Shown here in pieces: positions 8,901 through 35,254 of a DNA stretch of 64,000 bases. Position 1 is the first letter of the stretch; each line of letters begins with the position of its first letter. Both the position numbers and the translations under genes were made by a program. Source of the stretch: Planctomycetota bacterium (GTDB lineage Bacteria > Planctomycetota > UBA8108 > SXIK01); assembly GCA_965223845.1 (NCBI GenBank), contig CBDCXR010000004.1:2784001-2848000 (forward strand), read 5' to 3'. The notes under the pieces were generated by a model that had not been told where the DNA came from, did no database searches, and saw nothing but the letters and a program-made list of their open reading frames with translations.

Positions 8901-8945
8901 GTGCTTAGCTCGGTTCTCTCGTCGATCAGGACACCGAGTCCAACA

Positions 8946-11123: not shown

Positions 11124-11178
11124 GGTGGTTCGGCTGCCTTCGGTATCTCGGCGACCCGCGATCGGTCGCGGCGAGACG

Positions 11179-12132: not shown

Positions 12133-12231
12133 GGTCAGAATCCACCGCTGGTTCGCTGGATTTCGGTTTCACTCCGCGCGTCGATCCCGCGGGAGACGAA
12201 CCGGACTGCGCCAGAGCGTGCCCGCTCGGCG

Positions 12232-12870: not shown

Positions 12871-12906
12871 GAGTTCTTTCCTCGACGCCCGCGGGCGCCT
12901 ACCGAA

Positions 12907-15290: not shown

Positions 15291-15330
15291 GCGTTCTTCG
15301 TAGCTCCCGGACCGCGCGATCGCGCGCAGC

Positions 15331-15819: not shown

Positions 15820-15916
15820 CTCTCGCCGCTCCTCAGAGCGTCCTCACCACGACTCCCGGTCTGAACACCGAACCACCGATCGAGCCGAAGTCGTCCCGAT
15901 CTCCGCGCGCTGAGCC

Positions 15917-21070: not shown

Positions 21071-21079
21071 AGCGCCGCC

Positions 21080-22297: not shown

Positions 22298-22334
22298 CCG
22301 CGACCCCAAGCGCTCCCTCGCTCGGAGGAGGCTC

Positions 22335-23144
22335 ATGAGCAAATCCACCGACAGCATCGCCAACACGTTTATCGTCGCGACGGTCCTGTGCGTCGTGTGC
22401 TCGGTGCTCGTCTCGTCCGTAACCGTCTTTCTGCGGGAGGTACAGGGCGAGAACAAGGAGCGCGACCGGCAAAAGAACGTGCTCGTCGCGGCCGGGCTCT
22501 ACGACGAGGCGAGCGGCGATCCGGCCACGATCCCGGAGCAGTTCTCACGGTTTGAAGCGCGCGTCGTCGAGTTCGCGACCGGTGATTTCTACACCGGCGA
22601 AGACATCGATCCGGCGACGTTCGACCAGAAGGCCGCGGCGAAGGACCCTGCACGCGGGACGCTGGTCGCGCGCGACGTCGATATCGCCGGGATCAAGCGA
22701 CAATCGAAGTACGCCGTCGTCTACCTTCTTCGAGGCGCGGGAGGCGCGGTCGAACAGGTCGTTCTCCCGGTCCACGGGTACGGACTCTGGTCGACTCTCT
22801 ACGGCTTCCTCGCGCTGGGGCCGGACCTGAACACGATCCGCGGCCTCACGTTCTACGAGCACAAGGAGACCCCGGGGCTCGGCGGCGAGGTCGACAATCC
22901 GAGCTGGAAAGCGAAGTGGCGAACGTCCAAGAAGGCGTTCTGCGACGACGACCTCGAGAAGGTTTGCATCGAGGTCGTCAAGGGAGCGGCGGCGAGCGCC
23001 GATCCTCACGCAGTGGACGGACTCTCGGGCGCGACGATCACTACGCGAGGCGTCTCGAATCTCCTCGCCTACTGGCTAGGCGAGCACGGATTCGGTCCGT
23101 TTCTCAGCAAACTTCGGGCGGGCGCGGCAACTTCGGAGAATTGA
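22335..23144 (+). CDS. nqrC: Na+-NQR subunit C
   Basis: GYGLWS, ETPGLGGE and FMN site VDGLSGATIT. Confidence 0.95.
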   Translation: MSKSTDSIANTFIVATVLCVVCSVLVSSVTVFLREVQGENKERDRQKNVLVAAGLYDEASGDPATIPEQFSRFEARVVEFATGDFYTGEDIDPATFDQKAAAKDPARGTLVARDVDIAGIKRQSKYAVVYLLRGAGGAVEQVVLPVHGYGLWSTLYGFLALGPDLNTIRGLTFYEHKETPGLGGEVDNPSWKAKWRTSKKAFCDDDLEKVCIEVVKGAAASADPHAVDGLSGATITTRGVSNLLAYWLGEHGFGPFLSKLRAGAATSEN

Positions 23145-23156
23145 CTCGAGGTCCAA

Positions 23157-23801
23157 ATGGCAAAGGAACGCGCGAAGGACGTCCTCTTCGGACCGGTCTT
23201 CAGCAACAACCCGATCGCGCTTCAAGTCCTCGGGATTTGCTCGGCGCTCGCAGTGACGAGTCAGCTGAAGCCCACGGTGACGATGTGTCTCGCCGTCCTC
23301 TTCGTGCTCGGCGTCTCGAACTCGGCGGTGAGCCTCATCCGCTCGTATATCCCGAACAGCATCCGCATCATCGTCCAGATGACGATCATCGCGACCCTCG
23401 TCATCGTCGTCGACCAATTCCTTCAGGCGTACGCGTTCGAGACGAGCAAGCAGCTCAGCGTGTTCGTCGGTCTCATCATCACGAATTGCATCGTGATGGG
23501 GCGCGCCGAGGGTTACGCGATGAAGAACGGCGTCTTCATGAGCTTTCTCGACGGTGTCGGAAACGGGCTCGGGTACAGCGTCCTTCTTCTGATCGTCGGA
23601 GTGATCCGAGAATTCGTCGGCTCGGGGAAGCTGTTCGGCATCGAGATCCTTCGTCTCGCGAGCGTCGTCGGACCCGAAGGGGAACCGGGCTGGTACGTGC
23701 AGAACGGCCTGATGCTGCTCCCACCGAGCGCGTTCTTCATCATCGGCCTTCTCATCTGGGCGCTCCGCACCTGGAAGACCGATCAGGTCGAGGATCACTG
23801 A
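23157..23801 (+). CDS. nqrD: Na+-NQR subunit D
   Basis: [18 protein letters not shown] and [13 protein letters not shown]. Confidence 0.96.
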
Positions 23802-23802
23802 C

Positions 23803-24402
23803 ATGCTCGAACAGTACTTGAGCCTCTTCTTCAAGGCCGTCTTCGTCGAGAACCTCGCGCTCGCGTTCTTCCTCGGAATGTGCACCTTCCTCGCGGTGTC
23901 GAAGCAGGTGAGCACGGCGATGGGCCTCGGCATCGCCGTGATCGTGATCCAGGGAATCACGGTCCCGGTGAACAATCTCATCTACAACCACGTACTCAAG
24001 CCCAGTGCTCTCGCGGAGGGCGTCGATCTCACTTTCCTCGGGCTGATCAGCTACATCGGCGTGATCGCTGCGATGGTGCAGATCCTCGAGATGACGCTCG
24101 ATCGATACGTGCCCGCTCTCTACAACGCGCTCGGGATCTTCCTACCGCTCATCACCGTAAACTGCGCCATCCTCGGCGGATCGCTCCTCATGGTCGAACG
24201 CGACTACACGTTTGGCGAGAGCGTCGTGTTTGGGCTCGGATCGGGAGTCGGCTGGGCCCTCGCGATCGTTGCGCTCGCCGGCATCCGCGAGAAGCTCAAG
24301 TATTCGGACGTACCGACGGGACTCCGCGGGCTCGGCATCACGTTCATCATCGTGGGCCTCATGGCGCTCGCGTTCATGGGCTTCGGCGGGATCAAGCTGT
24401 AG
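23803..24402 (+). CDS. nqrE: Na+-NQR subunit E
   Basis: [13 protein letters not shown] and [10 protein letters not shown]. Confidence 0.96.
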
Positions 24403-24468
24403 GCGTCCCGCGGATGCGTCGTGCCGCCTGGTTCGAGACACCACTCTTAGAGACTGACCCGAAAACCT

Positions 24469-25698
24469 ATGACTGAGATCGCCCTCGGAGTGGTCATGTT
24501 CACGGTGATCGTGCTCGCGCTCGTCGTGATGATCCTCGCGGCCAAAGCGAAGCTCGTCGCGAGCGGCGATGTCCGCATCCTCATCAACGACGACGAGTCG
24601 AAGGCGCTCACCGTCCCTGCGGGCGGCAAGCTGCTGAACGTTCTCGGCGACAGCAAGATCTTCGTGTCGTCCGCCTGCGGCGGCGGCGGGACCTGCGCGC
24701 AGTGCAAGGTGAAGATCTTCGAGGGCGGCGGCGACATTCTCGCGACCGAGCTGAGCCACATCTCGAAACGCGAGGCCGCCGAGGGCGTGCGCCTTTCCTG
24801 CCAGGTCGCGGTGAAGCAGGACATGAAGATCGAGGTTCCCGCCGAAGTCTTCAGCGTTCGGAAATGGAACTGCGTCGTCCGCTCGAATCACAACGTCGCG
24901 ACTTTCATCAAGGAGCTCGTCCTCGAGCTCCCACCCGGCGAGGACGTCGATTTCCGCGCCGGTGGATACATCCAGATCGAGTGTCCGCCCCACAAGCTCA
25001 AGTACGACTCGTTCGACGTCGAGGAGGAGTACCGCGAGGACTGGGACAAGTTCAAGCTGTGGGACATCGAGTCGAACGTCACCGAACCGGTCGTTCGCGC
25101 GTACTCGATGGCGAACTACCCCGAGGAGAAGGGCATCATCATGCTCAACGTGCGCGTCGCGACCCCGCCCCCGCGCGCGCCGGCGGGAACTCCGCCCGGA
25201 AAGATGTCGTCGTGGATCTTCGATCTGAAGCCGGGCGATGAGGTGACGATCTCCGGACCCTTCGGCGAGTTCTTCGCCAAAGACACCGACGCCGAGATGA
25301 TCTACATCGGAGGAGGTGCGGGGATGGCGCCGATGCGCTCCCACCTCTTCGATTTGCTCAAGCGCATCCACACGAAGCGGAAGGTCAGCTTCTGGTACGG
25401 CGCGCGCAGCAAGCGCGAGATGTTCTATGTCGACGATTTCGACATGCTCGCGCGCGAGAACGACAATTTCGAGTGGCACGTCGCGCTGTCGGACCCCCTC
25501 CCGGAAGACGAATGGGAAGGTTACACCGGCTTCATCCACCAGGTCCTTTACGACAACTATCTGAAGGACCACCCTGCTCCCGAGGACTGCGAGTACTACA
25601 TCTGCGGCCCTCCGATGATGAACGCCGCTGTGTTCAAGCTTCTCGATGATCTAGGCGTCGAGAAGGAAAACGTCGCGTACGACGACTTCGGCGGCTGA
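24469..25698 (+). CDS. nqrF: Na+-NQR subunit F
   Basis: [12 protein letters not shown] [2Fe-2S], [26 protein letters not shown]. Confidence 0.97.
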
Positions 25699-25708: not shown

Positions 25709-26827
25709 ATGCGTGTCCTCGGCCCAGTCTTTCCGTCTCGATCGCCGAACCGAGAACTCGCTCCTCACGCCATTTTGGTCTCGAGCGCTCTTCTCCTTTG
25801 CGTCGTGCCCGCGTGCGAGCGACCGCCCGCCGTCATCTCCTACGGCGGCGCGACGATGGGGACGACCTACTCCGTCAAGATCGCCGGCGTGCTCACGGAA
25901 GACGAGCAACTCCGACTCGAGCGCGCAACGGCGGCGCGGCTCGACGAGATCGACCGGCGAATGTCGACTTGGCGGGACGACTCCGAAGTGACGCGATTCG
26001 GCGCCTCGGCGTCGACCGAGTGGTTCGAAGTCTCCGGGGAAACCGCCGCCGTCGTCGCCACCGCGCAGCGCATCGCCGAAGACACCGGGGGCGCGTTCGA
26101 TATCACCGTTGCTCCGCTCGTCGATCTCTGGGGATTCGGTCCTGAAGGAGAAAAGAGCGTCCCGAGCGACGACGACATCGCCGCTGCGATGGAGACCTGC
26201 GGCTGGTCCCGCCTCGATGTCGGAACGGATTCCGCGGGCCAACCGGCCCTGCGGAAGACAGTCCCCGACCTCCGGATCGATCTCTCGGCGATAGCGAAGG
26301 GCTACGCCGTCGATGCGATCGCAGAGGTCCTGGAGGCGATGGGACACTCGTCCTACATGGTCGAGATCGGAGGAGAGGTGCGCGTCGCGGGCGAGAAGGC
26401 GCCGGGAACTCCGTGGCGGATCGGCATCCAACTCCCCGACGCCGCGCGCGCGGTCGTCGAGTCGATCGTCGCCCTCGAGCACGGCGCGCTCGCGACTTCC
26501 GGCGACTACCGCAACTTCTTCCGCGCGGGGGCTCGCCGGTACTCGCACACGATCGACCCCCGCACCGGTCGGCCGGTCGAACACTCGCTCGCCTCCGTGA
26601 GCGTAATCGCACCGACGTGTGAAGAGGCCGACGCTCTCGCAACCGCGCTCATGGTTCTCGGCCCGGAAGAAGGCTATACTCTCGCTACAGAGCGCGGCCT
26701 TGCGGTGCTCCTGGTCGTGCGGAAGCCATCGCCGAACGGCGCAGCCGAGCCGGAGGCGCCTAGATTCGAACACCGCATGACGCCGAGCATGGAGCGCCAC
26801 CTATCGCGCTCGACGCATTCGCCGTAG
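25709..26827 (+). CDS. apbE: FAD:protein FMN transferase
   Basis: TMGTTY, DLSAIAKG, EIGGE, ATSGDY, HTIDPRTG, ADALATA. Confidence 0.95.
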   Translation: MRVLGPVFPSRSPNRELAPHAILVSSALLLCVVPACERPPAVISYGGATMGTTYSVKIAGVLTEDEQLRLERATAARLDEIDRRMSTWRDDSEVTRFGASASTEWFEVSGETAAVVATAQRIAEDTGGAFDITVAPLVDLWGFGPEGEKSVPSDDDIAAAMETCGWSRLDVGTDSAGQPALRKTVPDLRIDLSAIAKGYAVDAIAEVLEAMGHSSYMVEIGGEVRVAGEKAPGTPWRIGIQLPDAARAVVESIVALEHGALATSGDYRNFFRAGARRYSHTIDPRTGRPVEHSLASVSVIAPTCEEADALATALMVLGPEEGYTLATERGLAVLLVVRKPSPNGAAEPEAPRFEHRMTPSMERHLSRSTHSP

Positions 26828-26887: not shown

Positions 26888-27112
26888 ATGGAAGTCTACT
26901 TGATCGCGTTCGCCACGTTTGCCGCCGTCATCGCCGCAATGGCGATCGGAGTCATCGTCAGCGGCCGACGCATCCGAGGGACGTGCGGCGGATTGAACGC
27001 GTGGACAGACGGTGACGGGCGGCCGATCTGCGATGCCTGCGCCGATTGTCCGGAGCAGAAGCAGAACTGCGAGCTCGAGGACGCAGCGGCGACTTCCTCC
27101 GCGCGTCGTTGA
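26888..27112 (+). CDS. nqrM: Na+-NQR maturation protein NqrM
   Basis: AMAIGVIVSGRRIRGTCGGL followed by CDAC; follows apbE. Confidence 0.85.
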   Translation: MEVYLIAFATFAAVIAAMAIGVIVSGRRIRGTCGGLNAWTDGDGRPICDACADCPEQKQNCELEDAAATSSARR

Positions 27113-27558
27113 GTGCGGTCCCCGCGCTCGGTGAACCTTCGCCAACTTCGAACGGAGATCCGCGCGTGACGGCCGTGTACGTTCTCCCGACTCCTTGCGC
27201 GGCGGCCGCTCGTGTCGTCGAGAGTCTTCGCGTGCCGTCGAGATTCGAGCGCGACCGAGGGCTTCTCGTCGTCGATCATCCCGAGGCGGCGGAGGTCGCG
27301 CTCGCGTGCGGTGCGCTCAGTCACGCGGCGGCACGTGAGCTGTTCGACGCTCGCCGACACCTGCTGCCGCCCCGCCGCGTCGTCGTAGCGCGGTGCGGCG
27401 TCGACTGTCCGCGCGCGCTGCGCACCTACGCCGTCGCGCCACCAGCGAGCGAATGGCTGCCCGTCGACGCTTGGATCGAGTGCTGTGCTCCCGGCCGAGA
27501 CGTACTCGCGCGAGCCCTCGCAGCGAGCGAAGCATCCGACTCGACAGATTCGCCATGA
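27109..27558 (+). CDS. Highly divergent NuoB-like protein
   Basis: VVDHPEAAEVALACGALSH aligns with Nuo[20 protein letters not shown], and TYAVAPPASEWLPVDAWIECCAPGRDVL with [31 protein letters not shown] overlaps the nqrM stop (alternative GTG 27166); its TGA overlaps the next ATG. Confidence 0.7.
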   Translation: MSAVPALGEPSPTSNGDPRVTAVYVLPTPCAAAARVVESLRVPSRFERDRGLLVVDHPEAAEVALACGALSHAAARELFDARRHLLPPRRVVVARCGVDCPRALRTYAVAPPASEWLPVDAWIECCAPGRDVLARALAASEASDSTDSP

Positions 27559-29156
27559 GCGACGCGGGAACAGTGAATGTCTCGGCTCGACCGCGGAGAC
27601 CCGCGCTCGACGAGCAACTGCGCCATCGATTCGGATCGATCGTCAATCGGCGGACCGACGGCGCGAAGGAGGGCTCTCCGTCGATCCTCACCGTCCCGCG
27701 AGAACACGTCCTCCCCGTTCTCGCGTTTCTCGCGCGAGACGCGGATCCTCGCGCGGCGACTCTCTGGGACATCACCGTCGTCGATCACGGGGCCGGGAGG
27801 GACGTTCCGCGCTTCGAGGTCCTCTACTCCGTTCGGGACGCGACGGGCGCCGCGCTCGCCGTCTCGGTGTTCATCGCCGCGGACGATCTCGCCCTCCCGT
27901 CCTGCGTCGACCTCTGGCCGAGCGCCGAGTGGCTCGAACTCGAGGCGGAGGATTTCTTCGGTCTCGAGTTCGACGGCCATCCCCACACGCACCGCCTGTT
28001 TCTCCCCGACGACTACCCGGCGTTTCCACTCCGGCGAGAGATTCCGCTCGCCGGCGTCTCGCGTGAACGCGCGCCGCTCGCCAGCCCACCGCGCGCCGGC
28101 CGAGGGCGCTTCCGGATGGATGGAGTCGGCGACGCGCCGGTCGTCGGACCGAGCATCGAGTGGACGTCGCAAGGGGAGCGCGTCGCCGAGGTCGATGTCG
28201 CCATCGGACGATCGCACCTCGGATTTGAAAAGCGCTTTGAAGGTCTCGGCGCCGAGGAGTGCGTCGAGCTCGCCCGCCACATCGATCGGCGCGCCACGGT
28301 CCACGTCGCGTGGGCCGTCGCCCTCGCCTTCGAGCAGGCATTCGATCTCGCCGTAGATACTCGGGGCGAGACGCTCCGCGTCATCGCCGGCGAGCTCGAA
28401 CGAATCGCCGCGCATCTCGCGTGCGTGCGAGAGACGTTTCTCGCGATCGGATGCGAGCGACTCGCCGGGTCGGCGACGCGGCTTCTCGCGAGTGCGGAGA
28501 CCGCGCTGGCGAGTGCAGCGATCACCGTCGAGTTCGGAAATGCACGCGAGGCCGCGGGCTCGGCGCTCACCGAGGCGCTCGGGCTAGTGTTCGCGCGTCT
28601 TCCGCGTGGCTTGACCGATTTCCGGCAGAACTTTGCGCGGGATCGTTTCGCCGCACTTCGTCTCCGCGGGATCGGCGTCACTCGCGGCGGCTCCGCGGGA
28701 ACGGGTCCCACCGCTCGCGCCGCGGGAATCGCTCGGGATGTCAGACGCGATGCCCCCTACGGAAGATACGACGCACTCGAGTTCGACGTCCCCGTCGGCA
28801 ACGGAGGCGATGCTCTCGCTAGGCTCCAACTCCGCCTCGACGAAACGGTCGAGTCTCTGCGTGTGCTCGCGCGCGAGAGAGACGAGCTCGAGCGGCTCGG
28901 CCCGAGCGACGAGCCGAAGACGGTGGCGAGTGAACCCTCGAACCGTTACGCGCACGCGAGGGTCGAGGCTCCAGACGGCGAGATCACGGCGACGCTGGTC
29001 CTCGAAAAAGACGGAACGCCGCTCCGACTCGGGCTTCGATCCGCATCGTTCCAGCACACCGCCGCGCTGCCGAACATCCTCCGCGCCGAGTCCGTCGAAG
29101 ACGTCGCAGCGATCGGTGCGAGCCTTGGGATCCATTCCGGCCTCGTCGATCGTTGA
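27555..29156 (+). CDS. Divergent NuoC-NuoD fusion lacking quinone-site residues
   Basis: NuoC part: RFEVLY, WPSAEWLELEAEDFFGLEFDGHP, FPLRRE. NuoD part: GRSHLGFEK, ELERIAAHL, TGPTARAAG, RDVRRDAPYGRY, VEAPDGE, terminal GLVDR. HPxxHG and DY are absent. Confidence 0.85.
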   Translation: MSDAGTVNVSARPRRPALDEQLRHRFGSIVNRRTDGAKEGSPSILTVPREHVLPVLAFLARDADPRAATLWDITVVDHGAGRDVPRFEVLYSVRDATGAALAVSVFIAADDLALPSCVDLWPSAEWLELEAEDFFGLEFDGHPHTHRLFLPDDYPAFPLRREIPLAGVSRERAPLASPPRAGRGRFRMDGVGDAPVVGPSIEWTSQGERVAEVDVAIGRSHLGFEKRFEGLGAEECVELARHIDRRATVHVAWAVALAFEQAFDLAVDTRGETLRVIAGELERIAAHLACVRETFLAIGCERLAGSATRLLASAETALASAAITVEFGNAREAAGSALTEALGLVFARLPRGLTDFRQNFARDRFAALRLRGIGVTRGGSAGTGPTARAAGIARDVRRDAPYGRYDALEFDVPVGNGGDALARLQLRLDETVESLRVLARERDELERLGPSDEPKTVASEPSNRYAHARVEAPDGEITATLVLEKDGTPLRLGLRSASFQHTAALPNILRAESVEDVAAIGASLGIHSGLVDR

Positions 29157-29350
29157 TCGGCGTCCAGGCGGGGTCGAATCGTCTCGGGTATGGACGTAAA
29201 CCCCACGCCGGGCTCGTTCGCTGAGCGCGAGGTGCGGCGCATCCCGAACGACCGTTTCCGGACGAGAAACCATCGGAGCCCTGCTTGTCAGAGCTGCCAC
29301 GAGGGTTTCCACCATTGGGCCGGAAGCCGACCTCGGCGTACGCGCCACCT

Positions 29351-29365
29351 TGGCATGGACCTTGC
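29351..29365 (+). promoter_or_regulatory. Sigma54 (-24/-12) promoter of the pilin-like gene
   Basis: TGGCATGGACCTTGC matches TGGCAC-N5-TTGC with exact spacing, 36 bp before the ATG. Confidence 0.7.
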
Positions 29366-29401
29366 GGAATTCGTTCGGAGGAATCTTGAGAGGACATCCC
29401 C

Positions 29402-29896
29402 ATGAGACGACATCGACGAGAAGCCGGGTTCTCGCTCATCGAGCTCATGATCGTTCTGGCGATCATCGCGATCATTCTCGCGTTCGCGATCCCGAGCCTC
29501 ATGAGTTCTCGAAAGTCAGCGAACGAAACCGCGGCGATCGGGAACCTCCGCACGCTCCACTCGATTCAGCTCCAGTACCGCCTCCAGCACGGCCAATACG
29601 CTCGTAGCGCGCCGCAACTCGAGTCGTCGGGCCTGCTCACGATCCCCACGGGACCGATCGGAATGATCGAGGCGCAGGGTTACCGCGTCGCCATCGTCGC
29701 GCCGAACGGAACGTGGTGGGCGGTCGCGTTTCCGCTCGAGCCCGGCATTACGGGCGATCGCCGCTTCATCATCGGTGAGGCGGGCTCCGTCCGAGCGATC
29801 AGGGATCTGATCGCCGTTCCGCCTCCCGTCGTTCCGATCGTGCCTCCGGTCGCAGACGACTTCTCGCCGGATCGGACCGACTCGCGCACGTTCTAA
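29402..29896 (+). CDS. Type IV pilin-like (prepilin cleavage/methylation) protein
   Basis: AG|FSLIELMIVLAIIAII class III signal, then SANETAAIGNLRTL. Confidence 0.88.
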   Translation: MRRHRREAGFSLIELMIVLAIIAIILAFAIPSLMSSRKSANETAAIGNLRTLHSIQLQYRLQHGQYARSAPQLESSGLLTIPTGPIGMIEAQGYRVAIVAPNGTWWAVAFPLEPGITGDRRFIIGEAGSVRAIRDLIAVPPPVVPIVPPVADDFSPDRTDSRTF

Positions 29897-29998
29897 GTCG
29901 CGGCGGTCTTCGGCCCGGGTCACGGTCGACGGCCGGTCTCGGAAGAGTGTCGGATCCGGGAACCGAGGCGGCGACCGGGCGTGTCTTCCGGACGCCCG

Positions 29999-31495
29999 CT
30001 ACTCCTCCCCGAAGCAGTAGAGATGCTCCGACGTGCGCAGATAGATGCGGCCGCCTACGATCGCCGGCGTCGCGTAGGCGTCCTCGTTGAACGCGACCGA
30101 TCCGACCTCCTGCCAATCCGCTTCGGCGGTGATCACGCTGAGCTCGCCGCGTTCGCTGAGGAGGTAGACGTGGCCCCCACCGACGACCGGTGAGCTGTAG
30201 TAGTTGCCGCCCCCGGAAACTCGCCCGTGCTTCAGCACCTCGCCGCTCGCGGCGTCGAGGCACGACACGATCCCGGAGTTCTTCACCATGAAGATTCTCC
30301 CGGCGACGAGGACGGGCGACGGGACGTAGGGAAGCATGCGGTCGTGCGTCCACCGGATATGGGTTGAGGTGACGTCGCCGTCTCCGCCCGGGGAGATCGC
30401 CATGATCACGTTTTGCGCGGTCTCGAACACGTGGCGCATCCCTTCGTACTCCGTGCGAGTGATCCGCCCGTCCTTGTCGCGATCGATCTGGCGAAACCGT
30501 CGCCCGATCGCGCCCCCCGGATCGATCTCGTCGGCTTCGAGCGTCTCGCTTTTGTCCTCGTCCTTTTCGGCCACGAGATCGGTGAAACTCGGAACCGAGA
30601 TGCGATCTCCGGCGTCGGCCCCGGGCGCCCAACCAGTCACGTAGACGACTCCGTCGCGACCGACGGTCGGGGTGACGTTGACGATTCGCGAGAGTCCCCG
30701 AGCCGTCCACCGCTCGTCGCCCGAGTCGTAGTCGTAGCCGACGACGCGGAGCGTTCCCGCGAGCACGATCTCCCGCCTCCCGTTCCACTCGCGCACGATC
30801 GGCGTCGCGTAGCTTCGAGTGAACTCGGCGCGGTCCGTGTGCCAAATCTCATCGCCCGTTCTCTTGTCGATCGCCCGGAGGAACGAGTCGGTGTCATGAT
30901 CTTGCGCGACGATCACGCGGTCACCGTCGATTACCGGCGAGCTGCCCGCGCCGAAGTCGTCGTTGAAAGGCCCCATCGGGATCGTCCACTCGAGGTCACC
31001 GTCGGCCGAGTAGCACACGAGCCCCGCAGCACCGAAGAGACTCACGACGCGTTCACCGTCCGTGGCCGGACTCGGCTGAGCGTGGCTACCAATCGAGTGG
31101 ATGCGCTCCTCGCCGCGGGGTTCGAGCGCGCGCTCCCAGAGGATCTGTCCCGACGCAGCATCGAGCGCGATCGTGAGCAGGCTCTCGTCGCGCACGCCGG
31201 TCACGTAAACGCGATCTCCCCACACCACCGGTGACGAGTGTCCGGGCGGAAGCGGCGTTTTCCACACGACGTTCGTCTCGGGGCCGATCTCGACCGGAGG
31301 CGCGGCGCCTCGCCCGACGCCCGCGCAGTTGACACCGCGAAACTGCGGCCACTCGCGTGCAGAAGTCCCGCGACAGCCGGCGCCGGCGAGAAGGGCCGCG
31401 ATCGCGACACACGAAACGCTCCGGAGCACGATGGGGCTCGACCGACGCAAGTCCGTCTCAGGGTTCGCCGCCCGATGGATCACGTTCACGCTCAC
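29999..31495 (-). CDS. PQQ-binding-like beta-propeller protein with EF-hand insertion
   Basis: WPQFRG, GHSSPVVW, SPATDGERV, YYSSPV, ATPAI; EF-hand loops DEDKSETLEADE and DRDKDGRITRTE. Confidence 0.85.
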   Translation of the reverse strand: MSVNVIHRAANPETDLRRSSPIVLRSVSCVAIAALLAGAGCRGTSAREWPQFRGVNCAGVGRGAAPPVEIGPETNVVWKTPLPPGHSSPVVWGDRVYVTGVRDESLLTIALDAASGQILWERALEPRGEERIHSIGSHAQPSPATDGERVVSLFGAAGLVCYSADGDLEWTIPMGPFNDDFGAGSSPVIDGDRVIVAQDHDTDSFLRAIDKRTGDEIWHTDRAEFTRSYATPIVREWNGRREIVLAGTLRVVGYDYDSGDERWTARGLSRIVNVTPTVGRDGVVYVTGWAPGADAGDRISVPSFTDLVAEKDEDKSETLEADEIDPGGAIGRRFRQIDRDKDGRITRTEYEGMRHVFETAQNVIMAISPGGDGDVTSTHIRWTHDRMLPYVPSPVLVAGRIFMVKNSGIVSCLDAASGEVLKHGRVSGGGNYYSSPVVGGGHVYLLSERGELSVITAEADWQEVGSVAFNEDAYATPAIVGGRIYLRTSEHLYCFGEE

Positions 31496-31525
31496 TCTCC
31501 TTCGTCATATTCTTCGATCCGATCG

Positions 31526-32452
31526 TCAAGACCAGACCGCGACCTCGGGATCCGACTCGCTGTACCCGATGAACGTCGCGAGGACGACGCGCGGTAGATC
31601 GCCGTCGACTCCCGGCACCTCGTGAATCGCCCGCGTGTTGAAAAAGTAGAGGTCGCCGGGCTCGAGTTCCACGCGACAGCTCTCGATTCGGGTCGCGCGC
31701 GCGTAGCGATGGAACGTGCCGGCAGACAGATGTTCGTCGACGTCGCGATCCCAGAGACGGCGATGGATGATGCATTGCGCGGTCTCGCGCCCACGGACGG
31801 CGTTCTGGAGCACGAGGACGCCGGCAAACTGATGCTCGAATCGGTAGACCGAATACGCGTTCCGCTTTTCGCGAAGTCGCACCGAATCGAAGTGCGGCGG
31901 ATAGGCGTAGTCGCCGTAGTGAACACGGAAGATCGCCGGGCCGTAGCGCTCGCCGGTCGGCTCGCGAGCCGTCCGAACCGTCCTTCCCGGGCCGAGCTGA
32001 GCGAGGCGGTCGTAGATGACGTCGATCGGATTCGCCGTCCCGCGAAAGAGCGTGCGAAACCTCCGCCGGGTCTCGTCCGCGTGCCGAAAGAATCCCTCCG
32101 GATCGTCCCCGCGGTAGCCAAGGCTCGTCCCGATATCGATCCGTCGCTTCCGACCCGCGCGCGGAGCGGGACGACTCGGCGACGATCGATCTCCACTCAC
32201 GCGGACGTATCCCTCCGGGATTCCCTCGCGCAGAAACCGGTCCGGCGTCGGCGCCGCAGGGTCGTACGCGAGATCGTTCGCGATGAGGCGCTCGACGAGC
32301 TCGGCGCACGCGGGCTGCGGATACGCAGCACGAAAGACGACCGCCGGAACCTCCGCGCGCGCGAGGGAGCGCAGGTGGTCCGTGCCGCCGCGACGCGATG
32401 GACGGGGCGACAGCTCGACGGGGATCCAGGCGGATCGACTGGACGGGCGCAT
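31526..32452 (-). CDS. 2-oxoglutarate/Fe(II) oxygenase-like protein
   Basis: HFD ... LEPGDLYFFN ... IHEV ... R pattern (HxD...H...R). Start uncertain (32452 or 32491). Confidence 0.7.
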   Translation of the reverse strand: MRPSSRSAWIPVELSPRPSRRGGTDHLRSLARAEVPAVVFRAAYPQPACAELVERLIANDLAYDPAAPTPDRFLREGIPEGYVRVSGDRSSPSRPAPRAGRKRRIDIGTSLGYRGDDPEGFFRHADETRRRFRTLFRGTANPIDVIYDRLAQLGPGRTVRTAREPTGERYGPAIFRVHYGDYAYPPHFDSVRLREKRNAYSVYRFEHQFAGVLVLQNAVRGRETAQCIIHRRLWDRDVDEHLSAGTFHRYARATRIESCRVELEPGDLYFFNTRAIHEVPGVDGDLPRVVLATFIGYSESDPEVAVWS

Positions 32453-32792
32453 GTGGAGTTTTCCGACAGACCTTCTCGACATTCGCCACACGACGTCCGC
32501 GCCGGCCGAATGCGTCGAACTCTTCTATTTGTTCTAACGAATCTCGGAGGCTCAACTCAACTGTTCCGGCCGACCGGCGGCGGCCTCGCTGAAACGTGGA
32601 GGCTGAAGGCGAACCGCCGACCGCTGTCTTCCCACCTACCACACACTTTTTCCGTTCGCCGATCCTCGCGGGTTGGTACTCTGGCCGCCCGCGCGAGGGA
32701 TCGCGGAGACTCACTCGGTCTCCGCGCAGTGGACGAGGATTGGGTCGACCGGCCGGTCGCGACGATCGGCCGCGGGAAAACGAGGTGGCTTC

Positions 32793-33995
32793 GTGGTCGG
32801 CACGGTCGTCGGCGCGATTCTTCTCTTCGTCGTGTACGTTGCCGTCGAGTGGCTCACCCGCCGCTCGCTCGCGCGTCGCTACGGCTTCGCGGTCGCCGGG
32901 GTTCTCGACGACGTGCGCGGCGTGCGGTGTGCGTTCGCTTCTTGGCGCCGCGCGCCGAGAGTCTTCGGACGATCGCTGCGAACACTCCCGGTTCCAGCGC
33001 TTGCATTCGTCTTCGTCGCGTGCGTAGCCGCCGGCGTTGCGGCCGACTCGGAAACCGCGATCAGCGGGGCGCTCGGACTCGCCGCGCTCTTCGTCGCGGC
33101 TGCGCTCGACGCCGCGCCTTTCCTCGAATCGAGCTCGAATCCCGCAGACTTCGCTCCTCGACGCGCGCGCGTCGTCCTCGTGCGAGTCGGTTGGGTGCTC
33201 GTCGCGGCGGTTTCGCTCATCGGAGTCGTTCGTCTCGCGGCGACGTGGAACCTCTCGACGATTTCTCCGCGAAGCGACGCGATCGGTGCGTGGCACTTTG
33301 TGCAGCAGCCGCTCGGTGCGCTGCTCCTCGTCGCGAGCGTCGTCGCGCTTCGCGAACGCCACGCCCTCACGGCGCTCGAGGCCGTCGAACGCGATCGTAC
33401 CCTCGGGTCCCTCGCGCTGCGCTGCGCCTGGGCGACGGCCCTCGCGCAGTTGTTCTTCGGCGGCGTGAGTCCGGGCTTCGCGCTCCCCGCCGGGCGAGGC
33501 GGCGCGGTCCTTGCACTTCTCGTTCTCGCGACGAAGCTCGGCCTCGTGGCCATCGTCTCGACGTGGTTCCGGATGCGCGGACCGCGCTGGCGTGCACACC
33601 AGTCTGCCCGCGCGCTCGAAATCGCACTTCCGCTCGCTGCGCTCCATCTCGCGTTGGCTAGCCCCACGGCCCCTTGGCCAGCGGTAGGGTTCGCGACCGG
33701 CATCGAGGTGCTCGTCGCCGGGTTGGTTTTGTTCGCGGCCTGGTGGGCACCCAAGTTCTCCGCGAATGCGGCCGCGCTCGCCGTTCGCATCGGCTCGGGG
33801 ATCGCGGCACCCGTCCGCGCCGTCGCGCTCGTCGCGCGAGTCGTCGTCGACGACGTCCTCGCCGGGGCGCTGGAATGGATCGCGGCATTCGCAGTTCGGG
33901 GCTTCACGCGATTGCTCGCATCGCGGCGCGCGCTCGCGGCCGCACTGGCGATCGCGTTCGTGAGCTCCCTCGTTCTGTATTTGGCCGTGCGATGA
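32793..33995 (+). CDS. Highly divergent NuoH-like membrane protein, apparently fused to a NuoL C-terminal helix
   Basis: GTG with GAGGTGG RBS. WLTRRSLAR~WLERKVSAH; WHFVQQPLG~WFVFRNPF; LFFGG~LYLGG; KLGLVAIVSTWFRMRGPRWRAHQ~[23 protein letters not shown]; ALPLA~LLPLS. Confidence 0.7.
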   Translation: MVGTVVGAILLFVVYVAVEWLTRRSLARRYGFAVAGVLDDVRGVRCAFASWRRAPRVFGRSLRTLPVPALAFVFVACVAAGVAADSETAISGALGLAALFVAAALDAAPFLESSSNPADFAPRRARVVLVRVGWVLVAAVSLIGVVRLAATWNLSTISPRSDAIGAWHFVQQPLGALLLVASVVALRERHALTALEAVERDRTLGSLALRCAWATALAQLFFGGVSPGFALPAGRGGAVLALLVLATKLGLVAIVSTWFRMRGPRWRAHQSARALEIALPLAALHLALASPTAPWPAVGFATGIEVLVAGLVLFAAWWAPKFSANAAALAVRIGSGIAAPVRAVALVARVVVDDVLAGALEWIAAFAVRGFTRLLASRRALAAALAIAFVSSLVLYLAVR

Positions 33996-35254
33996 TCGAG
34001 TCGCTCTTCGCCATCAGCCTCTCGCTCCCCTTCGCGACCGCGGTGTGGATCGCGACGCGATCGGCTCCGGCGCCGTCGGACGAGTCAGTCCGCAGAGCGG
34101 CGCTCGCCGGAAGCGCGGCGAGCCTCGCGTTTCTGATTCCACTCCTTTCCGGGCTCGGCGCAGAGACACCGCAGGTGAGGCTCGATGGCTTCGCCGGAGT
34201 GTTCGCTCCCCTCGGCGCGGCGATCGTGATGGCTGCGATCGCCGCCCTTCCGCGGGACCCAAACGCGCGCGGTAGCTACGTCGCGGCGCTCGGAATCCAG
34301 AGTAGCCTCCTCGCCGCACTCGCGACGGCGGACGGAGCGACGTTTCTCGCGAGCTGGATCCTCGCAGGCTTCTTTCTCCGCGCGCTTCTTCCCCCCGCGC
34401 AGTCCTCGTCCGCGCGACGGGCGCGCCTTTATGTCACGTTTGGATTCCCTGCCGCGGGCGTCGCATTGCTTCCCGCCGCGAGTGAAGCGGGAGGCGAGGC
34501 GTGGGTTGCGATCGCTACCAGCCTCGCGGCCGGCATGGTGCTCCCTCTCCTTCCGTTTCAACGCGGGTACCTGGAAGCGGGAGAGAGCGTCGCGTCGCCG
34601 GCGCGAGCTCTGTTGGTGTCGGCATCCGTACTTCTCTCCGTAACCGCCCTCCTTAGGTTCGCGGGAAGCGGACTCGACGGTCTGGGGCACGTGTTCACCG
34701 TCTGGGCGATCGCGAGTCTCGTTTACGCAGCTCTGACCGCGACGCTCGAGACCAGGCTCGAGCGTTCGATCACTCTCGTAGCGACAGGGCACGCTGCGCT
34801 CGCGGCGGCGGGCATTGGCACCGGCGACGTCACCGCGATCTCCGGCGCGGTCCTCCTCGTCGCCGCGACGCTAGCGAGCGCTACGCTCCTTCTCGTGACG
34901 GCGGACTCGGTCGCGCACGGACGGGCGACTCGCGGTGTCCGCGCCGGCTTCGCCGTCACCGCCGCGCTCTGGATCGGACTGGGGCCGAGTCCGTTCATCG
35001 CCGGGGCCACGCCGATCGTGCGCGCTCTAGGCGCGAACCAACTTGGAGCGCCCGCCGCCGCGATCACCGCACTCGTTGTACTCCACGTCGCACTCGCCGC
35101 CCGCTGCATCCGCGCACTCGTCGCCGGCGCGGCCGACCGCGTCTCGGTGGTCGAGTCGCGCGGGCGCATCGAAAGCGCGATCGCAATCGCTCTCCTCGCG
35201 CTCCTCCTCGCGCTCGGCTGGATGCCCGATCTCGTCCCGGCATCGCTTCGTTAG
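33992..35254 (+). CDS. Highly divergent NuoM-like antiporter-family subunit
   Basis: ATGA overlap with the previous gene. RLDGF~GVDGL; ADGATFLASW~LDFFLFYVFW; LPLLPFQRGYLEA~IPVFPFHTWLPDA; RLERSITLVATGH~DFKKLVAYSSVSH; LGWMP~LGVYP. Confidence 0.78.
   Translation: MIESLFAISLSLPFATAVWIATRSAPAPSDESVRRAALAGSAASLAFLIPLLSGLGAETPQVRLDGFAGVFAPLGAAIVMAAIAALPRDPNARGSYVAALGIQSSLLAALATADGATFLASWILAGFFLRALLPPAQSSSARRARLYVTFGFPAAGVALLPAASEAGGEAWVAIATSLAAGMVLPLLPFQRGYLEAGESVASPARALLVSASVLLSVTALLRFAGSGLDGLGHVFTVWAIASLVYAALTATLETRLERSITLVATGHAALAAAGIGTGDVTAISGAVLLVAATLASATLLLVTADSVAHGRATRGVRAGFAVTAALWIGLGPSPFIAGATPIVRALGANQLGAPAAAITALVVLHVALAARCIRALVAGAADRVSVVESRGRIESAIAIALLALLLALGWMPDLVPASLR

What the first reader, a model, noticed from the sequence alone, without database searches (positions are those of the whole stretch)
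27109..35254. A second, catalytically stripped complex I module attached to the Na+-NQR operon
Seen: four plus-strand genes in canonical nuo order: NuoB-like (27109-27558), NuoCD (27555-29156), NuoH-like with an L-like tail (32793-33995) and NuoM-like (33992-35254). About 1,500 codons are free of stops or visible frameshifts. Stop/start overlaps link nqrM-B', B'-CD' and H'-M', and H' has a strong RBS. Yet the quinone His/Tyr, the NuoH acidic loop and the NuoM Glu/Lys residues are gone. Three unrelated genes sit where nuoEFG would lie. Inference: either a repurposed pseudo-enzyme complex (scaffold, assembly or regulatory partner of NQR or of the intact complex I) or an operon decaying under relaxed selection. 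The Ala/Arg/Val bias fits decay; the intact coupling fits function. This is the best candidate for an undescribed system in the window.
Basis: partly seen in the sequence, partly recalled or inferred. Interest (0 to 1): 0.85.

Follow-up and report, generated by a model that had tools for sequence, protein, structure and literature searches.

The report
Redox-dead complex I remnant beside NQR
Four genes next to the sodium-pumping NADH dehydrogenase operon are very diverged, catalytically dead leftovers of a second respiratory complex I that related bacteria still carry intact; they still look like translated proteins, and this may show one respiratory enzyme replacing another.

Summary
The four genes exist at the stated coordinates. 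CD' (27555-29156) is a clear fused NuoC-NuoD (Pfam). B', H' and M' fall below every curated cut-off. However, each beats 0 of 400 shuffled controls in BLASTP against NuoB, NuoH and NuoM sets, and the best hits of H' and M' are subunits of relatives' second complex I.

New here:
- Same-order relatives carry an intact 14-gene nuoA-N operon (nuo2), divergent from nuo1. The window has NQR plus B'-CD'..H'-M' in that place.
- The NuoD tree puts CD' beside nuoD2 on a branch about ten times longer.
- The quinone His/Tyr and three of four N2 cysteine columns are lost.

Signs of continued maintenance: CD' keeps universal core residues beyond shuffle controls. H' and M' keep second-codon-position T like true membrane subunits. 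There are no stops in 1,502 codons, against 14 expected.

Signs of decay: nine subunits are gone, composition has drifted to Ala/Arg, B' has a poor coding signal, no orthologous module was found, and the nearest NQR-bearing relatives lack it.

An unrelated metagenomic lineage also links NQR to a His/Tyr-less NuoCD, with dN/dS 0.11-0.17.

Verdict: a real, unusual variant; whether it still functions is unresolved.

The parts
5499..16477 (-). Intact complex I operon nuo1 (nuoB, C, D, H, I, J, K, L, M, N, with no nuoEFG). It is the canonical partner set of this genome and serves as the reference for all comparisons.
   Evidence: Pfam: Oxidored_q6 4e-28, NADHdh 2e-110, Proton_antipo_M 3.6e-73. PF00346 and PF01058 hits in the own genome. 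ORFs. The subunit labels I, J, K, L and N come from tblastn correspondence with relatives. The nuoA ORF I first picked has no coding signal and is left out.
19646..25698 (+). [quoted passage not shown]
   Evidence: Pfam: NQRA_N, NQRA_2nd, NQRA_SLBB; NQR2_RnfD_RnfE 2.9e-102; FMN_bind; Rnf-Nqr twice; Fer2 + FAD_binding_6 + NAD_binding_1.
25709..26827 (+). apbE (flavin transferase).
   Evidence: Pfam ApbE 7.3e-95.
26888..27112 (+). NqrM-like small ORF (74 aa). Its TGA stop overlaps the TTG start of B'.
   Evidence: NqrM (PF04400) is the top Pfam hit but falls below the cut-off (E 0.054, 13.7 bits). It is conserved behind nqrF/apbE in G003 (54%), G016 (67%) and L113-L117 (42-51%). The exact sequence is in the public protein collection.
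27109..27558 (+). B': a degenerate NuoB-like ORF (149 codons, TTG start).
   Evidence: NCBIfam NuoB 1.7e-4, 21 bits. BLASTP against the own NuoB gives E 5e-5. Best BLASTP score is 32.7 bits, against a maximum of 26.9 in 400 shuffles. My own NuoB HMM gives 6.8 bits, against a maximum of 2.0 in 600 shuffles. Three of four conserved Cys columns are lost (C43A, C44R, C109G; C140 kept). Coding score is -0.11 and GC3 is below GC1. The ORF is absent from the public protein collection with any of its 5 possible starts.
27555..29156 (+). CD': a fused NuoC-NuoD protein (533 aa) that lacks the conserved His loop and Tyr of the quinone site.
   Evidence: Pfam 30kDa and 49kDa. It keeps 49 of 90 family-conserved NuoD columns, with H22>A, H26>gap and Y75>R. 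It exceeds all 12 shuffles at universal columns, 44 against a maximum of 32 of 74. Trees.
29402..29896 (+). Unrelated insert: a protein with a prepilin-type N-terminal methylation motif.
   Evidence: Pfam N_methyl 2.1e-9. NCBIfam GspG/ComGC-like N-terminus.
29999..31495 (-). Unrelated insert: a PQQ-like beta-propeller protein with an EF-hand.
   Evidence: Pfam PQQ_2 1.2e-25.
31526..32491 (-). Unrelated insert: a WelO5-like 2OG-Fe(II) oxygenase.
   Evidence: Pfam WelO5 1.8e-17, 64 bits, above the cut-off of 27.
32793..33995 (+). H': a degenerate NuoH-like membrane protein (400 aa, GTG start preceded by GAGGTGG). Only residues of about 67-290 resemble NuoH. The tail 285-400 has no detectable relative.
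   Evidence: NCBIfam NuoH 1.5e-5. BLASTP gives 44.3 bits to NuoH2 of G005, against a maximum of 31.6 in 400 shuffles. My own HMM gives 18.1 bits, against a maximum of 8.4 in 600 shuffles. Tail test. T at codon position 2 is 0.36. The exact sequence is in the public collection.
33992..35254 (+). M': a degenerate antiporter-like (NuoM-like) membrane protein (420 aa). Its ATG overlaps the stop of H' (ATGA).
   Evidence: Pfam Proton_antipo_M E 0.0044, below the cut-off. NCBIfam 2.3e-4. BLASTP gives 38.5 bits, colinear 8-409 against 58-514 of NuoM2 of G004, against a maximum of 33.9 in 400 shuffles. ESM Atlas first hit is a NuoM family at 0.95. It is not significant against my own HMMs. T at codon position 2 is 0.33.

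Best explanation
B'-CD' and H'-M' are the surviving core of a former canonical 14-subunit complex I (nuo2). The core comprises the NuoB-like, NuoC-NuoD, NuoH-like and one antiporter-like subunit. In this lineage nuo2 was displaced by Na+-NQR.

The proteins can no longer move electrons or pump ions. B' has lost three of the four conserved cysteine columns of the N2 cluster. CD' has lost the quinone-site His loop and Tyr. NuoA, E, F, G, I, J, K, L and N are gone.

The genes are nevertheless not free-running pseudogenes. They have been kept as translated, folded (CD') and membrane-embedded (H', M') proteins while diverging very fast.

I infer, but have not shown, the following:
- B'-CD' are made by read-through and translational coupling from the nqr-apbE-nqrM transcript.
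- H'-M' are made from their own promoter in the 300-bp gap after the divergent oxygenase gene.
- The products form a small, cofactor-free, complex-I-like membrane assembly. Its role is structural (a scaffold or assembly partner), or it is merely tolerated, rather than catalytic.

Shown: homology, descent from a nuo2-type ancestor, the residue losses, and the selection signatures. Inferred: expression, assembly, and any present function.
For: Homology and origin:
- Pfam hits for CD'.
- BLASTP calibrated by shuffles for B', H' and M', 0 of 400 each. The best hits of H' and M' are NuoH2 and NuoM2 of same-order genomes.
- Relatives G004, G005, G012 and G036 carry nuoA-N (nuo2). In G004 and G010 it is divergent from nuo1.
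- In the NuoD tree, CD' sits in an 8-row clade with nuoD2 of G001, G002 and G004 (99* quick, 97/99* careful). Its end branch is 2.13-2.54, against 0.08-0.30 for nuoD2.

Dead chemistry:
-.
- There is no trace of the A, E, F, G, I, J, K or L subunits in any frame of 26001-38000.

Still constrained:
- CD' keeps 44 of 74 universal columns that are invariant in nuo2 (shuffles: mean 24, maximum 32). It keeps only 11 of 60 nuo2-specific ones (shuffles: mean 7).
- Four metagenomic relatives in the same subclade (P0017, P0021, P0062, P0063) also lack the Tyr. The three with an aligned N-terminus (P0017, P0021, P0062) also lack the second His; P0063 has gaps there. They keep 60-70 of the 90 conserved columns.
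- 0 stops in 1,502 codons, against 14.2 expected from the genes' own position-specific composition (P = 7e-7; CD' alone 0.002).
- T at codon position 2 is 0.36 and 0.33 in H' and M', against 0.11-0.15 at positions 1 and 3. True membrane subunits show the same pattern. GRAVY is 0.92-0.93, against -0.14 and -0.34 expected without codon structure.
- Coding scores of CD' (0.31) and M' (0.25) lie within the range of accepted neighbours (0.21-0.34).
- Three 4-bp stop/start overlaps are present.

Parallel case:
- A His/Tyr-less NuoCD lies directly behind nqrM in another lineage. It evolves at dN/dS 0.11-0.17.
Against: - Nine of 14 subunits are gone, and three unrelated genes, two of them on the other strand, split the module.
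- Composition is pushed to A+R+G+P+V at 0.48-0.56 and Lys to 0-0.8%, as GC-biased drift under weak constraint would give.
- B' has a negative coding score, GC3 below GC1, and is absent from the public protein set with all 5 of its possible starts.
- M' shows no site-specific retention beyond shuffles (21 of 85 against a mean of 22) and is not significant against my own HMMs.
- The coding score of H' equals that of two antisense frames.
- Taken alone, the open frames of B', H' and M' are only weakly surprising (P = 0.15, 0.036 and 0.07).
- No orthologue of CD' was found in 21 of 21 genomes of the order. No relatives of H' or M' were found by the word-indexed search of 5.8 billion proteins. The best relative of CD' anywhere is 40% identical and comes from a 2.5-kb contig.
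- The two nearest NQR-bearing relatives, G003 and G016, have nothing Nuo-like after nqrM, so NQR does not need the module.
- In the parallel lineage, one contig (L117) shows the same kind of operon reduced to fragments.
- There is no expression evidence.
Confidence: 0.5

Rival explanations
1. Plain relic. After NQR took over, the nuo2 operon lost its function. Large deletions and insertions removed most of it. The four remaining ORFs now evolve neutrally and are open only because stops are rare in 70% GC DNA and too little time has passed.
For: - Nine subunits are lost and foreign genes are inserted.
- The composition has drifted to Ala/Arg and Lys is near zero.
- B' has a poor coding signal and is not among the publicly called proteins.
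- M' shows no retention above shuffles.
- B', H' and M' would be open by chance with P of 0.04-0.15 each.
- Spurious ORFs of 679 and 729 aa exist in the same region.
- The module is missing in G003 and G016.
- L117 shows deletion decay of a comparable NQR-linked operon.
- No orthologous module was found.
Against: - The long branch of CD' (2.1-2.5 changes per site) did not erase universal core columns (44 of 74 against a shuffle maximum of 32), while lineage-specific ones were erased. Those changes therefore accumulated under selection.
- H' and M' are about 23-25% identical to NuoH2/NuoM2 yet fully keep second-position T and their hydrophobicity.
- The alignments of CD' (18-533) and M' (8-409) to their homologues are colinear in a single frame.
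- All four together are open with P = 7e-7.
- The relic reading therefore needs a very recent death after a long fast-evolving but selected phase.
Confidence: 0.3
2. NQR accessory family. A quinone-site-less NuoCD (with partners) is a recurrent, selected add-on of Na+-NQR operons. It is shared by descent or transfer between this genome and the P0018 metagenomic lineage, and it acts in NQR assembly, regulation, or electron or ion hand-over.
For: - In L113, L114 and L116, a NuoCD that lacks the His/Tyr follows nqrM on the same strand (whole in L113 and L114, only its first 96 residues in L116). L117 carries a 200-aa remnant of it. NqrF in these contigs is 63-65% identical to the window's.
- That NuoCD has dN/dS of 0.11-0.17.
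- L114 continues with NuoA, CD, E, F, G and H, and has no NuoB.
- A clade of CD' plus the P0018 family is not rejected. On the 74-row tree p-AU is 0.51 and the constrained tree is 1.3 lnL better. On the 36-row careful tree p-AU is 0.085.
- In the window, B' is coupled to nqrM by a TTGA overlap.
Against: - The careful tree places CD' with nuoD2 and P0017 (96/94*, 97/99*), and the constrained tree is 12.7 lnL worse.
- The gene content differs. The P0018 lineage has NuoA and EFG but no NuoB. The window has B' but no A or EFG.
- NQR-bearing G003 and G016 lack any such gene.
- L117 shows the linked operon decaying.
- The P0018 type was not found above 41% identity in 400 sampled genomes of the phylum.
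- Adjacency may only reflect an old neighbourhood of two NADH dehydrogenase operons.
Confidence: 0.12
3. Still an enzyme. This would be a minimal Ech/FHL/Ehr-like energy-converting module (small subunit, large subunit, NuoH-like and antiporter-like subunits) that uses another substrate or cofactor set.
For: The four retained subunit types are the ones shared by complex I and the group 4 hydrogenase-type complexes; this statement is recalled and was not tested. The large subunit is fused C-D as in some hydrogenase-type proteins (P0006, P0009).
Against: - There is no NuoI-type ferredoxin subunit.
- B' keeps 1 of 4 conserved Cys columns.
- CD' has no Cys motifs of a NiFe site in its sequence and branches inside complex I NuoD. 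It does not branch with the 9-row hydrogenase/Ehr-like clade (99*).
- The conserved charged columns of NuoH and NuoM are mostly not matched (with the alignment caveat).
Confidence: 0.03

Closest known systems
Canonical 14-subunit complex I (nuoA-N), here the nuo2 operon of same-order relatives (G004, G005, G012; also G036 of the same class)
   Same: The gene order B, C-D, (E-F-G), H..., M is the same. CD' nests beside nuoD2 in the NuoD tree. The best matches of H' and M' are NuoH2 and NuoM2. The position, divergent from nuo1, is also shared.
   Different: - Nine subunits are missing.
- C and D are fused.
- The conserved His loop and Tyr, and 3 of 4 Cys columns, are lost.
- The branch is about 10 times longer.
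- NQR is inserted ahead of the module and unrelated genes take the place of EFG.
Ehr complexes (energy-converting hydrogenase-related complexes)
   Same: Members of the complex I / group 4 hydrogenase superfamily whose catalytic subunit has lost its catalytic ligands. They are retained together with membrane subunits. Their function is unknown and has been proposed to be charge translocation (passages read in PMC6349859).
   Different: Ehr large subunits group with group 4 NiFe hydrogenases. CD' branches inside complex I NuoD, apart from the 9-row hydrogenase-like clade. The Ehr complexes described keep antiporter-like subunits that are thought to be active. Here the antiporter-like protein is barely recognisable.
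Swapping of NQR and canonical NDH-1 while a non-canonical NDH-1 without the NADH module stays (Marinimicrobia)
   Same: The same three players appear: NQR, a canonical 14-subunit NDH, and an NDH without the NADH module. NQR and the canonical NDH alternate between clades (passages read in PMC6143742). Among the 40 relatives here, the 10 genomes of genus g5 have both nuo types and no NqrB match, whereas G003 has NQR and only nuo1.
   Different: That paper, in the passages I read, reports presence and absence. It does not report a stripped remnant of the replaced enzyme kept as open frames behind the nqr operon.
NQR-linked NuoA-NuoCD-NuoEFG-NuoH cluster of metagenome contigs L113/L114 (P0018 family)
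   Same: A fused NuoCD without the conserved His/Tyr lies directly downstream of nqrM on the same strand.
   Different: It keeps NuoA, E, F, G and a good NuoH (Pfam 8.5e-53), has no NuoB, is far less diverged (Complex1_49kDa 1e-71), and is under clear purifying selection. It sits in a different clade in the best trees, although a shared origin is not rejected.
Campylobacter/Helicobacter complex I, with nuoE and nuoF replaced by unrelated genes
   Same: Unrelated genes sit at the nuoE/F position of a nuo operon. This is recalled; the paper appears only as a reference-list entry in PMC6143742.
   Different: There the replacement genes are on the same strand and are part of a working enzyme. Here two of the three are on the opposite strand and the flanking subunits are catalytically dead.

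Membership tests
NuoD / Complex1_49kDa | Matches the family profile above the curated cut-off | tested here: met
   Pfam PF00346 3.1e-33, 115 bits against a cut-off of 24. The NCBIfam NuoD equivalog models are not reached (151 bits against 360).
NuoD / Complex1_49kDa | Conserved His of the N-terminal loop and Tyr of the quinone head-group site. The roles are recalled; the columns are at least 90% conserved in 71 reference sequences. | tested here: not met
   H22>A, H26>gap and Y75>R (numbering of the window's own NuoD). The control NuoD2 of G004 keeps all three.
NuoC / Complex1_30kDa | Matches the family profile above the curated cut-off | tested here: met
   Pfam PF00329 3.5e-28, 99 bits against a cut-off of 22.5.
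NuoB / Oxidored_q6 | Matches the family profile above the curated cut-off | tested here: not met
   Pfam E 0.083, 13.1 bits against 27. NCBIfam 21 bits against 116. Not found by the PF01058 scan of the genome. Remote homology is supported only by shuffle calibration and by BLASTP against the own NuoB (E 5e-5).
NuoB / Oxidored_q6 | Four conserved cysteines that hold the N2 [4Fe-4S] cluster. The role is recalled; the columns are at least 90% conserved in 71 references. | tested here: not met
   C43>A, C44>R and C109>G; C140 is kept. Caveat: the overall column match of B' is not better than that of shuffles.
NuoH / NADHdh | Matches the family profile above the curated cut-off | tested here: not met
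   No Pfam NADHdh hit up to E 10. NCBIfam NuoH 24.4 bits against 305. My own HMM gives 18.1 bits, against a maximum of 8.4 in 600 shuffles. ESM Atlas 0.83 is a lead only.
NuoH / NADHdh | Conserved acidic and basic residues of the loops that line the quinone tunnel and E-channel (roles recalled) | tested here: not met
   23 of 60 conserved columns match. E173, D200, K203, K207, E208, E294, E349, D356, E361, E363 and E384 do not match. The C-terminal R..PR.R..Q motif is kept. The match is only slightly above shuffles (23 against a maximum of 20).
NuoL/M/N / Proton_antipo_M | Matches the family profile above the curated cut-off | tested here: not met
   Pfam 16.7 bits against 21.5. NCBIfam 19.8 bits against 827. 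My own HMMs are not significant. BLASTP gives 38.5 bits, above all 400 shuffles. ESM Atlas 0.95.
NuoL/M/N / Proton_antipo_M | Conserved Glu (TM5) and Lys/His (TM7, TM8, TM12) of the proton path (roles recalled) | tested here: inconclusive
   In the alignment E146>gap, K308>V, K339>S and K388>E. However, the alignment of M' performs no better than shuffled sequences. M' contains no Lys at all, so no conserved Lys can be present.
Respiratory complex I (as a whole enzyme) | At least the 11 core subunits NuoA-D and H-N encoded together | tested here: not met
   Only B, C-D, H and one antiporter-like gene are present. tblastn with all 14 nuo2 proteins of G004 finds nothing for A, E, F, G, I, J, K or L in 26001-38000.
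Ehr / group 4 NiFe-hydrogenase-related complexes | The large subunit groups with group 4 hydrogenase large subunits rather than with NuoD | tested here: not met
   The hydrogenase-like rows (P0006, P0009, P0011, P0012 and others) form a separate 99* clade of 9. CD' lies in the NuoD part.
Na+-NQR operon (as an accessory gene) | Conserved presence behind nqrM in NQR-bearing relatives | tested here: not met
   Absent behind nqrM in G003 and G016. A comparable NuoCD is present only in the unrelated contigs L113, L114, L116 and L117.

The most novel reading that the evidence does not exclude
Quinone-site-less NuoCD proteins, with degenerate partner subunits, are a so far undescribed, selected accessory module of Na+-NQR operons. 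They would have been recruited at least twice, or spread with NQR, from complex I. They would work as a cofactor-free scaffold or regulator that links NQR to membrane or NADH-module components. The window would be its most reduced form and L114 (NuoA-CD-EFG-H without NuoB) its fuller form.
Probability: 0.13. Interest if true: 0.78.

Novelty: new variant of a known kind. Interest (0 to 1): 0.5.

Why it matters
If the four proteins are still made, they would be a bacterial example of complex I core subunits kept as pseudo-enzymes after losing every redox and ion-path residue. That would bear on which parts of complex I are needed for folding and assembly alone, and on what a cofactor-free Q-module could do beside NQR.

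If they are relics, the locus is still useful. It would capture the replacement of a canonical H+-pumping complex I by Na+-NQR in one place on the chromosome. Intact, stripped and fully deleted states are all available in relatives: G004/G005/G012 are intact, this genome is stripped, and G003/G016 are deleted.

The second, independent NQR-NuoCD linkage in metagenome contigs shows purifying selection and has no NuoB. It may be the more promising lead for an undescribed respiratory arrangement.

Tried and rejected
- Direct BLASTP of H' and M' against the window's own NuoH, NuoM and NuoN gave nothing (E 0.31-5).
- phmmer against PDB sequences: H' gave no hit up to E 1. M' gave only E 0.02-0.3 to Nad2/Nad4.
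- The genome-contig scan with alignment A2 used a generic NuoC motif. It returned 80 ordinary fused-NuoCD loci. None of them had B', H', M' or nqr neighbours (0 tblastn hits).
- Conserved-column counts first looked like strong evidence of constraint for all four proteins. The shuffle control showed most of that to be alignment bias. I keep the argument only for CD' and, weakly, for H'.
- H' tail 285-400, H' 1-160 and M' 300-420: no homology to any Nuo subunit beyond shuffles. The 'L-like tail' is dropped.
- The NuoC-domain tree (51 rows, 151 columns) is unresolved for CD'.
- AlphaFold2 without an alignment gave M' pLDDT 48.7 and H' 47.2. This is too low for a fold search, so none was run.
- Complex prediction of B' with the NuoD part of CD' gave no verdict (score 0.09, mark 0.32). 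This is no evidence either way.
- The look-up of sequencing runs listed no RNA holder. It listed only four DNA runs of one sample, which may be the source of the assembly. There is therefore no expression data. Read laying on their contigs gave no usable polymorphism.
- Word-indexed protein searches found no relatives for M' and only H' itself for H'. Their sensitivity is limited, since the same kind of search missed P0017 for CD'.
- The search of 400 sampled genomes of the phylum with P0018 gave a best identity of 41%, so no further NQR-linked locus was obtained.
- Literature searches listed no paper that, by title or abstract start, describes a stripped complex I module behind an nqr operon. 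I read passages of PMC6349859 and PMC6143742 only. Supplements were not opened.
- The taxon of the genome was not established.

Full report
WHAT IS THERE. The window is GC-rich (0.61-0.70). It holds three respiratory gene sets side by side.
- On the minus strand lies an intact complex I operon without nuoEFG, which I call nuo1 (nuoB to nuoN, about 5499-16477). Pfam gives Oxidored_q6 4e-28, NADHdh 2e-110 and Proton_antipo_M 3.6e-73.
- Divergent from it, on the plus strand, lies nqrABCDEF (19646-25698). All subunits are Pfam-confirmed, including the three NqrA domains.
- Behind that come apbE (7.3e-95) and a 74-codon NqrM-like ORF. NqrM is its top Pfam hit but falls below the cut-off (E 0.054).

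The junctions read TTGA, ATGA and ATGA, and GAGGTGG precedes the GTG of H'. Independent short-read contigs of four runs of one sample reproduce 26000-36000. Three have no difference, and one has a single extra C behind 28003 at depth 4.9. The frames are therefore not assembly artefacts. That sample may be the source of the assembly.

ARE THEY COMPLEX I GENES? CD' certainly is. It matches Complex1_30kDa (3.5e-28) and Complex1_49kDa (3.1e-33), both above Pfam's cut-offs.

B', H' and M' do not reach any curated cut-off.
- Pfam gives Oxidored_q6 E 0.083, no NADHdh hit, and Proton_antipo_M E 0.0044.
- NCBIfam gives NuoB 1.7e-4, NuoH 1.5e-5 and NdhD/NuoM 2.3e-4, at 20-24 bits against cut-offs of 116-827.

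Ala-rich membrane sequences invite false matches, so I calibrated with shuffles.
- In BLASTP against sets of NuoB, NuoH and NuoL/M/N proteins taken from fetched loci, the real sequences scored 32.7, 44.3 and 38.5 bits.
- None of 200 global and 200 local shuffles reached these scores; the maxima were 26.9, 31.6 and 33.9.
- My own HMMs supported B' (6.8 bits, 0 of 600 shuffles) and H' (18.1 bits, 0 of 600). They did not support M'.
- The ESM Atlas put M' next to NuoM-family clusters at 0.95, and H' next to NADHdh clusters at 0.83, which is a lead only.

I accept all four homologies, that of M' with the least confidence. The claimed L-like tail of H' (285-400) has no support.

WHERE THEY COME FROM. 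Same-order relatives (G004, G010) carry two complete complex I operons, back to back.
- One is the orthologue of nuo1 (NuoD 80%, NuoB 82% identical).
- The other is a second operon, nuo2, which is a full nuoA-N set with nuoEFG.
- nuo2 is also complete in G005, G012 and G036, and partial on short contigs of G001, G002, G009 and G014.

In the window, NQR plus B'-CD' ... H'-M' lie where nuo2 lies in those relatives, in the same orientation relative to nuo1.
- The best BLASTP partners of H' and M' are NuoH2 of G005 and NuoM2 of G004.
- In a NuoD-domain tree, CD' falls in a clade of 8 rows with nuoD2 of G001, G002 and G004 and four metagenomic proteins. Support is 99* on the quick 74-row tree and 97/99* on the careful 36-row tree.
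- Its end branch is 2.13-2.54 changes per site, against 0.08-0.30 for nuoD2.
- The own genome has no other NuoD.

The gap between CD' and H' is 3.6 kb, and relatives have nuoEFG there. In the window it holds a prepilin-type gene, a PQQ propeller and a WelO5-like oxygenase, the last two on the other strand. No trace of NuoA, E, F, G, I, J, K or L was found in any frame of 26001-38000.

WHAT IS LOST. The numbers below use the window's own NuoD and NuoB numbering, and the roles of the residues are recalled.
- NuoD: against 71 diverse NuoD sequences, 90 columns are at least 90% identical. CD' keeps 49 and the control NuoD2 keeps 82. The two His of the N-terminal loop and the Tyr are A, gap and R.
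- NuoB: B' matches 17 of 56 conserved columns, against 49 for the control. It has A, R and G at three of the four conserved Cys columns.
- NuoH: H' matches 23 of 60 columns (control 59). It misses most conserved acidic loop residues but keeps the C-terminal Arg/Pro motif.
- NuoM: M' matches 25 of 103 columns (control 94), and it contains no lysine at all.
- A warning from my own control applies. Shuffled versions of B' and M' match as many conserved columns as the real sequences, so for those two proteins the residue-level statements are only as good as a forced alignment.

DECAY OR MAINTENANCE? Points for decay:
- Nine subunits are gone and the operon is split by foreign genes.
- A+R+G+P+V is 0.48-0.56, against 0.33-0.45 in the nuo1 (excluding my misassigned nuoA ORF) and nqr proteins. 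Lys is 0-0.8%.
- B' has a negative coding score and GC3 below GC1. With all five possible starts it is absent from the public protein collection, whereas the NqrM-like ORF, CD', H' and M' are present.
- No orthologue of CD' exists in the 21 genomes held for the order. The best relative anywhere is 40% identical. Word-indexed searches find nothing for H' or M'.
- The nearest NQR-bearing relatives, G003 (NqrF 80%, NuoB 90% identical) and G016, have unrelated genes right after nqrM.

Points for maintenance:
- CD' keeps 44 of 74 columns that are both invariant in nuo2 and universal (shuffles: mean 24, maximum 32). It keeps only 11 of 60 that are nuo2-specific (shuffles: mean 7.2). Its many substitutions therefore avoided the structural core.
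- The four metagenomic proteins that group with CD' (P0017, P0021, P0062, P0063) have also lost the Tyr. The three with an aligned N-terminus (P0017, P0021, P0062) have also lost the second His; P0063 has gaps there. They keep 60-70 of the 90 columns. This suggests a lineage of stripped but conserved NuoCD proteins.
- H' and M' are only about 23-25% identical to their nuo2 counterparts. Even so, they have T at codon position 2 in 0.36 and 0.33 of codons, against 0.11-0.15 at positions 1 and 3. They have about ten hydrophobic segments each and a GRAVY of 0.92-0.93, where their base composition alone would give -0.14 and -0.34.
- Given their own position-specific composition, 14.2 stops are expected in the 1,502 codons and none is seen (P = 7e-7). 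By gene, P is 0.002 for CD', 0.036 for H', 0.07 for M' and 0.15 for B'.
- The alignments of CD' and M' to their homologues run in one frame from end to end.

Together these points mean that most of the divergence happened under selection for a translated, folded or membrane-embedded product. They cannot show that selection still acts today.

A PARALLEL CASE ELSEWHERE. The family of P0018 is 34% identical to CD' and also lacks the His/His/Tyr. It was found on six metagenome contigs.
- On L113, L114 and L116 it lies directly behind nqrABCDEF-nqrM (on L116 only its first 96 residues before the contig ends), and L117 carries a 200-residue remnant there. NqrF there is 63-65% identical to the window's.
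- L114 continues with NuoA, NuoCD, NuoE, NuoF, NuoG and NuoH, all Pfam-confirmed, and has no NuoB.
- This NuoCD evolves at dN/dS 0.11-0.17, against 0.03-0.06 for nqrF, so a quinone-site-less NuoCD can be a selected protein.
- On L117, however, it is cut down to a 200-residue chimera followed by a 187-residue antiporter fragment and then the ATP synthase operon, so such operons also decay.
- In the best trees this family is not sister to CD'. A joint clade is nevertheless not rejected: p-AU is 0.51 on the large quick tree and 0.085 on the careful tree.
- The NuoC-domain tree is unresolved.
- No closer genome locus was found in 400 sampled genomes of the phylum.

COMPARISON WITH WHAT IS KNOWN.
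- The closest analogy in concept is the Ehr complexes. These are relatives of group 4 hydrogenases that lack the metal ligands and have unknown function (PMC6349859, passages). CD' is not one of them by phylogeny.
- The alternation of NQR and canonical NDH beside a persistent NDH without the NADH module is described for Marinimicrobia (PMC6143742, passages). The same pattern is seen among the 40 relatives here.
- Four literature searches listed no description of a stripped complex I core kept as open frames behind an nqr operon. These searches cover open-access papers and preprints only.

VERDICT. The module is a redox-dead, very fast-evolving remnant of a canonical complex I displaced by NQR. 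I put about 0.5 on its still being a maintained, non-catalytic protein set, 0.3 on its being a plain relic that is not yet broken, and about 0.12 on a genuine NQR-linked accessory family shared with the metagenomic lineage. Expression and binding were not testable here: no RNA run was listed, the complex prediction gave no verdict, and the single-sequence folds had pLDDT below 50.

Noticed in passing
window 5499-16477 (-): The intact complex I of this genome (nuo1) has no nuoEFG in the operon. The genome's only Complex1_51K (NuoF-like) match lies far away, at G000:C4:4986311-4986820. In several same-order relatives, nuoC1 and nuoD1 appear to be one open frame of 560-563 aa.
   Followed up: partly
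window 16474-16878 (-): The ORF I first took for nuoA has no coding signal in that frame (score -0.42, 20% Arg). The true nuoA is probably one of the overlapping minus-strand ORFs at 16827-17368.
   Followed up: no
window 31526-32491 (-): This is a WelO5-like 2OG-Fe(II) oxygenase (Pfam 1.8e-17). Its sequence shows H-F-D at the first metal motif. From memory, that would fit a hydroxylase rather than a halogenase.
   Followed up: no
window 29340-29673: Summed contig depth is about three times that of the neighbouring bins in all four runs. Many foreign contigs end here. This is the conserved prepilin-type N-terminus of the 29402-29896 gene, shared by many genes and organisms in the sample.
   Followed up: no
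window 28003: One of four contig assemblies (run X4, depth 4.9) has an extra C behind 28003, inside CD', which would shift the frame. The other three agree with the window. It may be an error or a rare variant.
   Followed up: no
L113 versus L114: The two metagenome contigs are mosaic. NuoCD, nqrB and nqrD differ at dS of about 0.11-0.13, but nqrF differs at dS 1.13. This suggests recombination inside the nqr operon.
   Followed up: no
L114 8627-15070: This is a complex I-type cluster behind NQR with NuoA, fused NuoCD (no His/Tyr), NuoE, F, G and H, but no NuoB between A and CD. The contig ends before any NuoI-N could be seen.
   Followed up: partly
window 31458-33661, both strands: Spurious ORFs of 729 aa (-) and 679 aa (+) run across the oxygenase gene, the intergenic gap and H'. 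They have flat GC1/GC2/GC3 (0.76/0.63/0.63) and no Pfam hit. They are a reminder that long open frames alone mean little in this DNA.
   Followed up: yes
G000:C4:6037417-6041551: A second cluster of three Proton_antipo_M genes lies elsewhere in the genome. It may be Mrp-type or another complex and was not examined.
   Followed up: no
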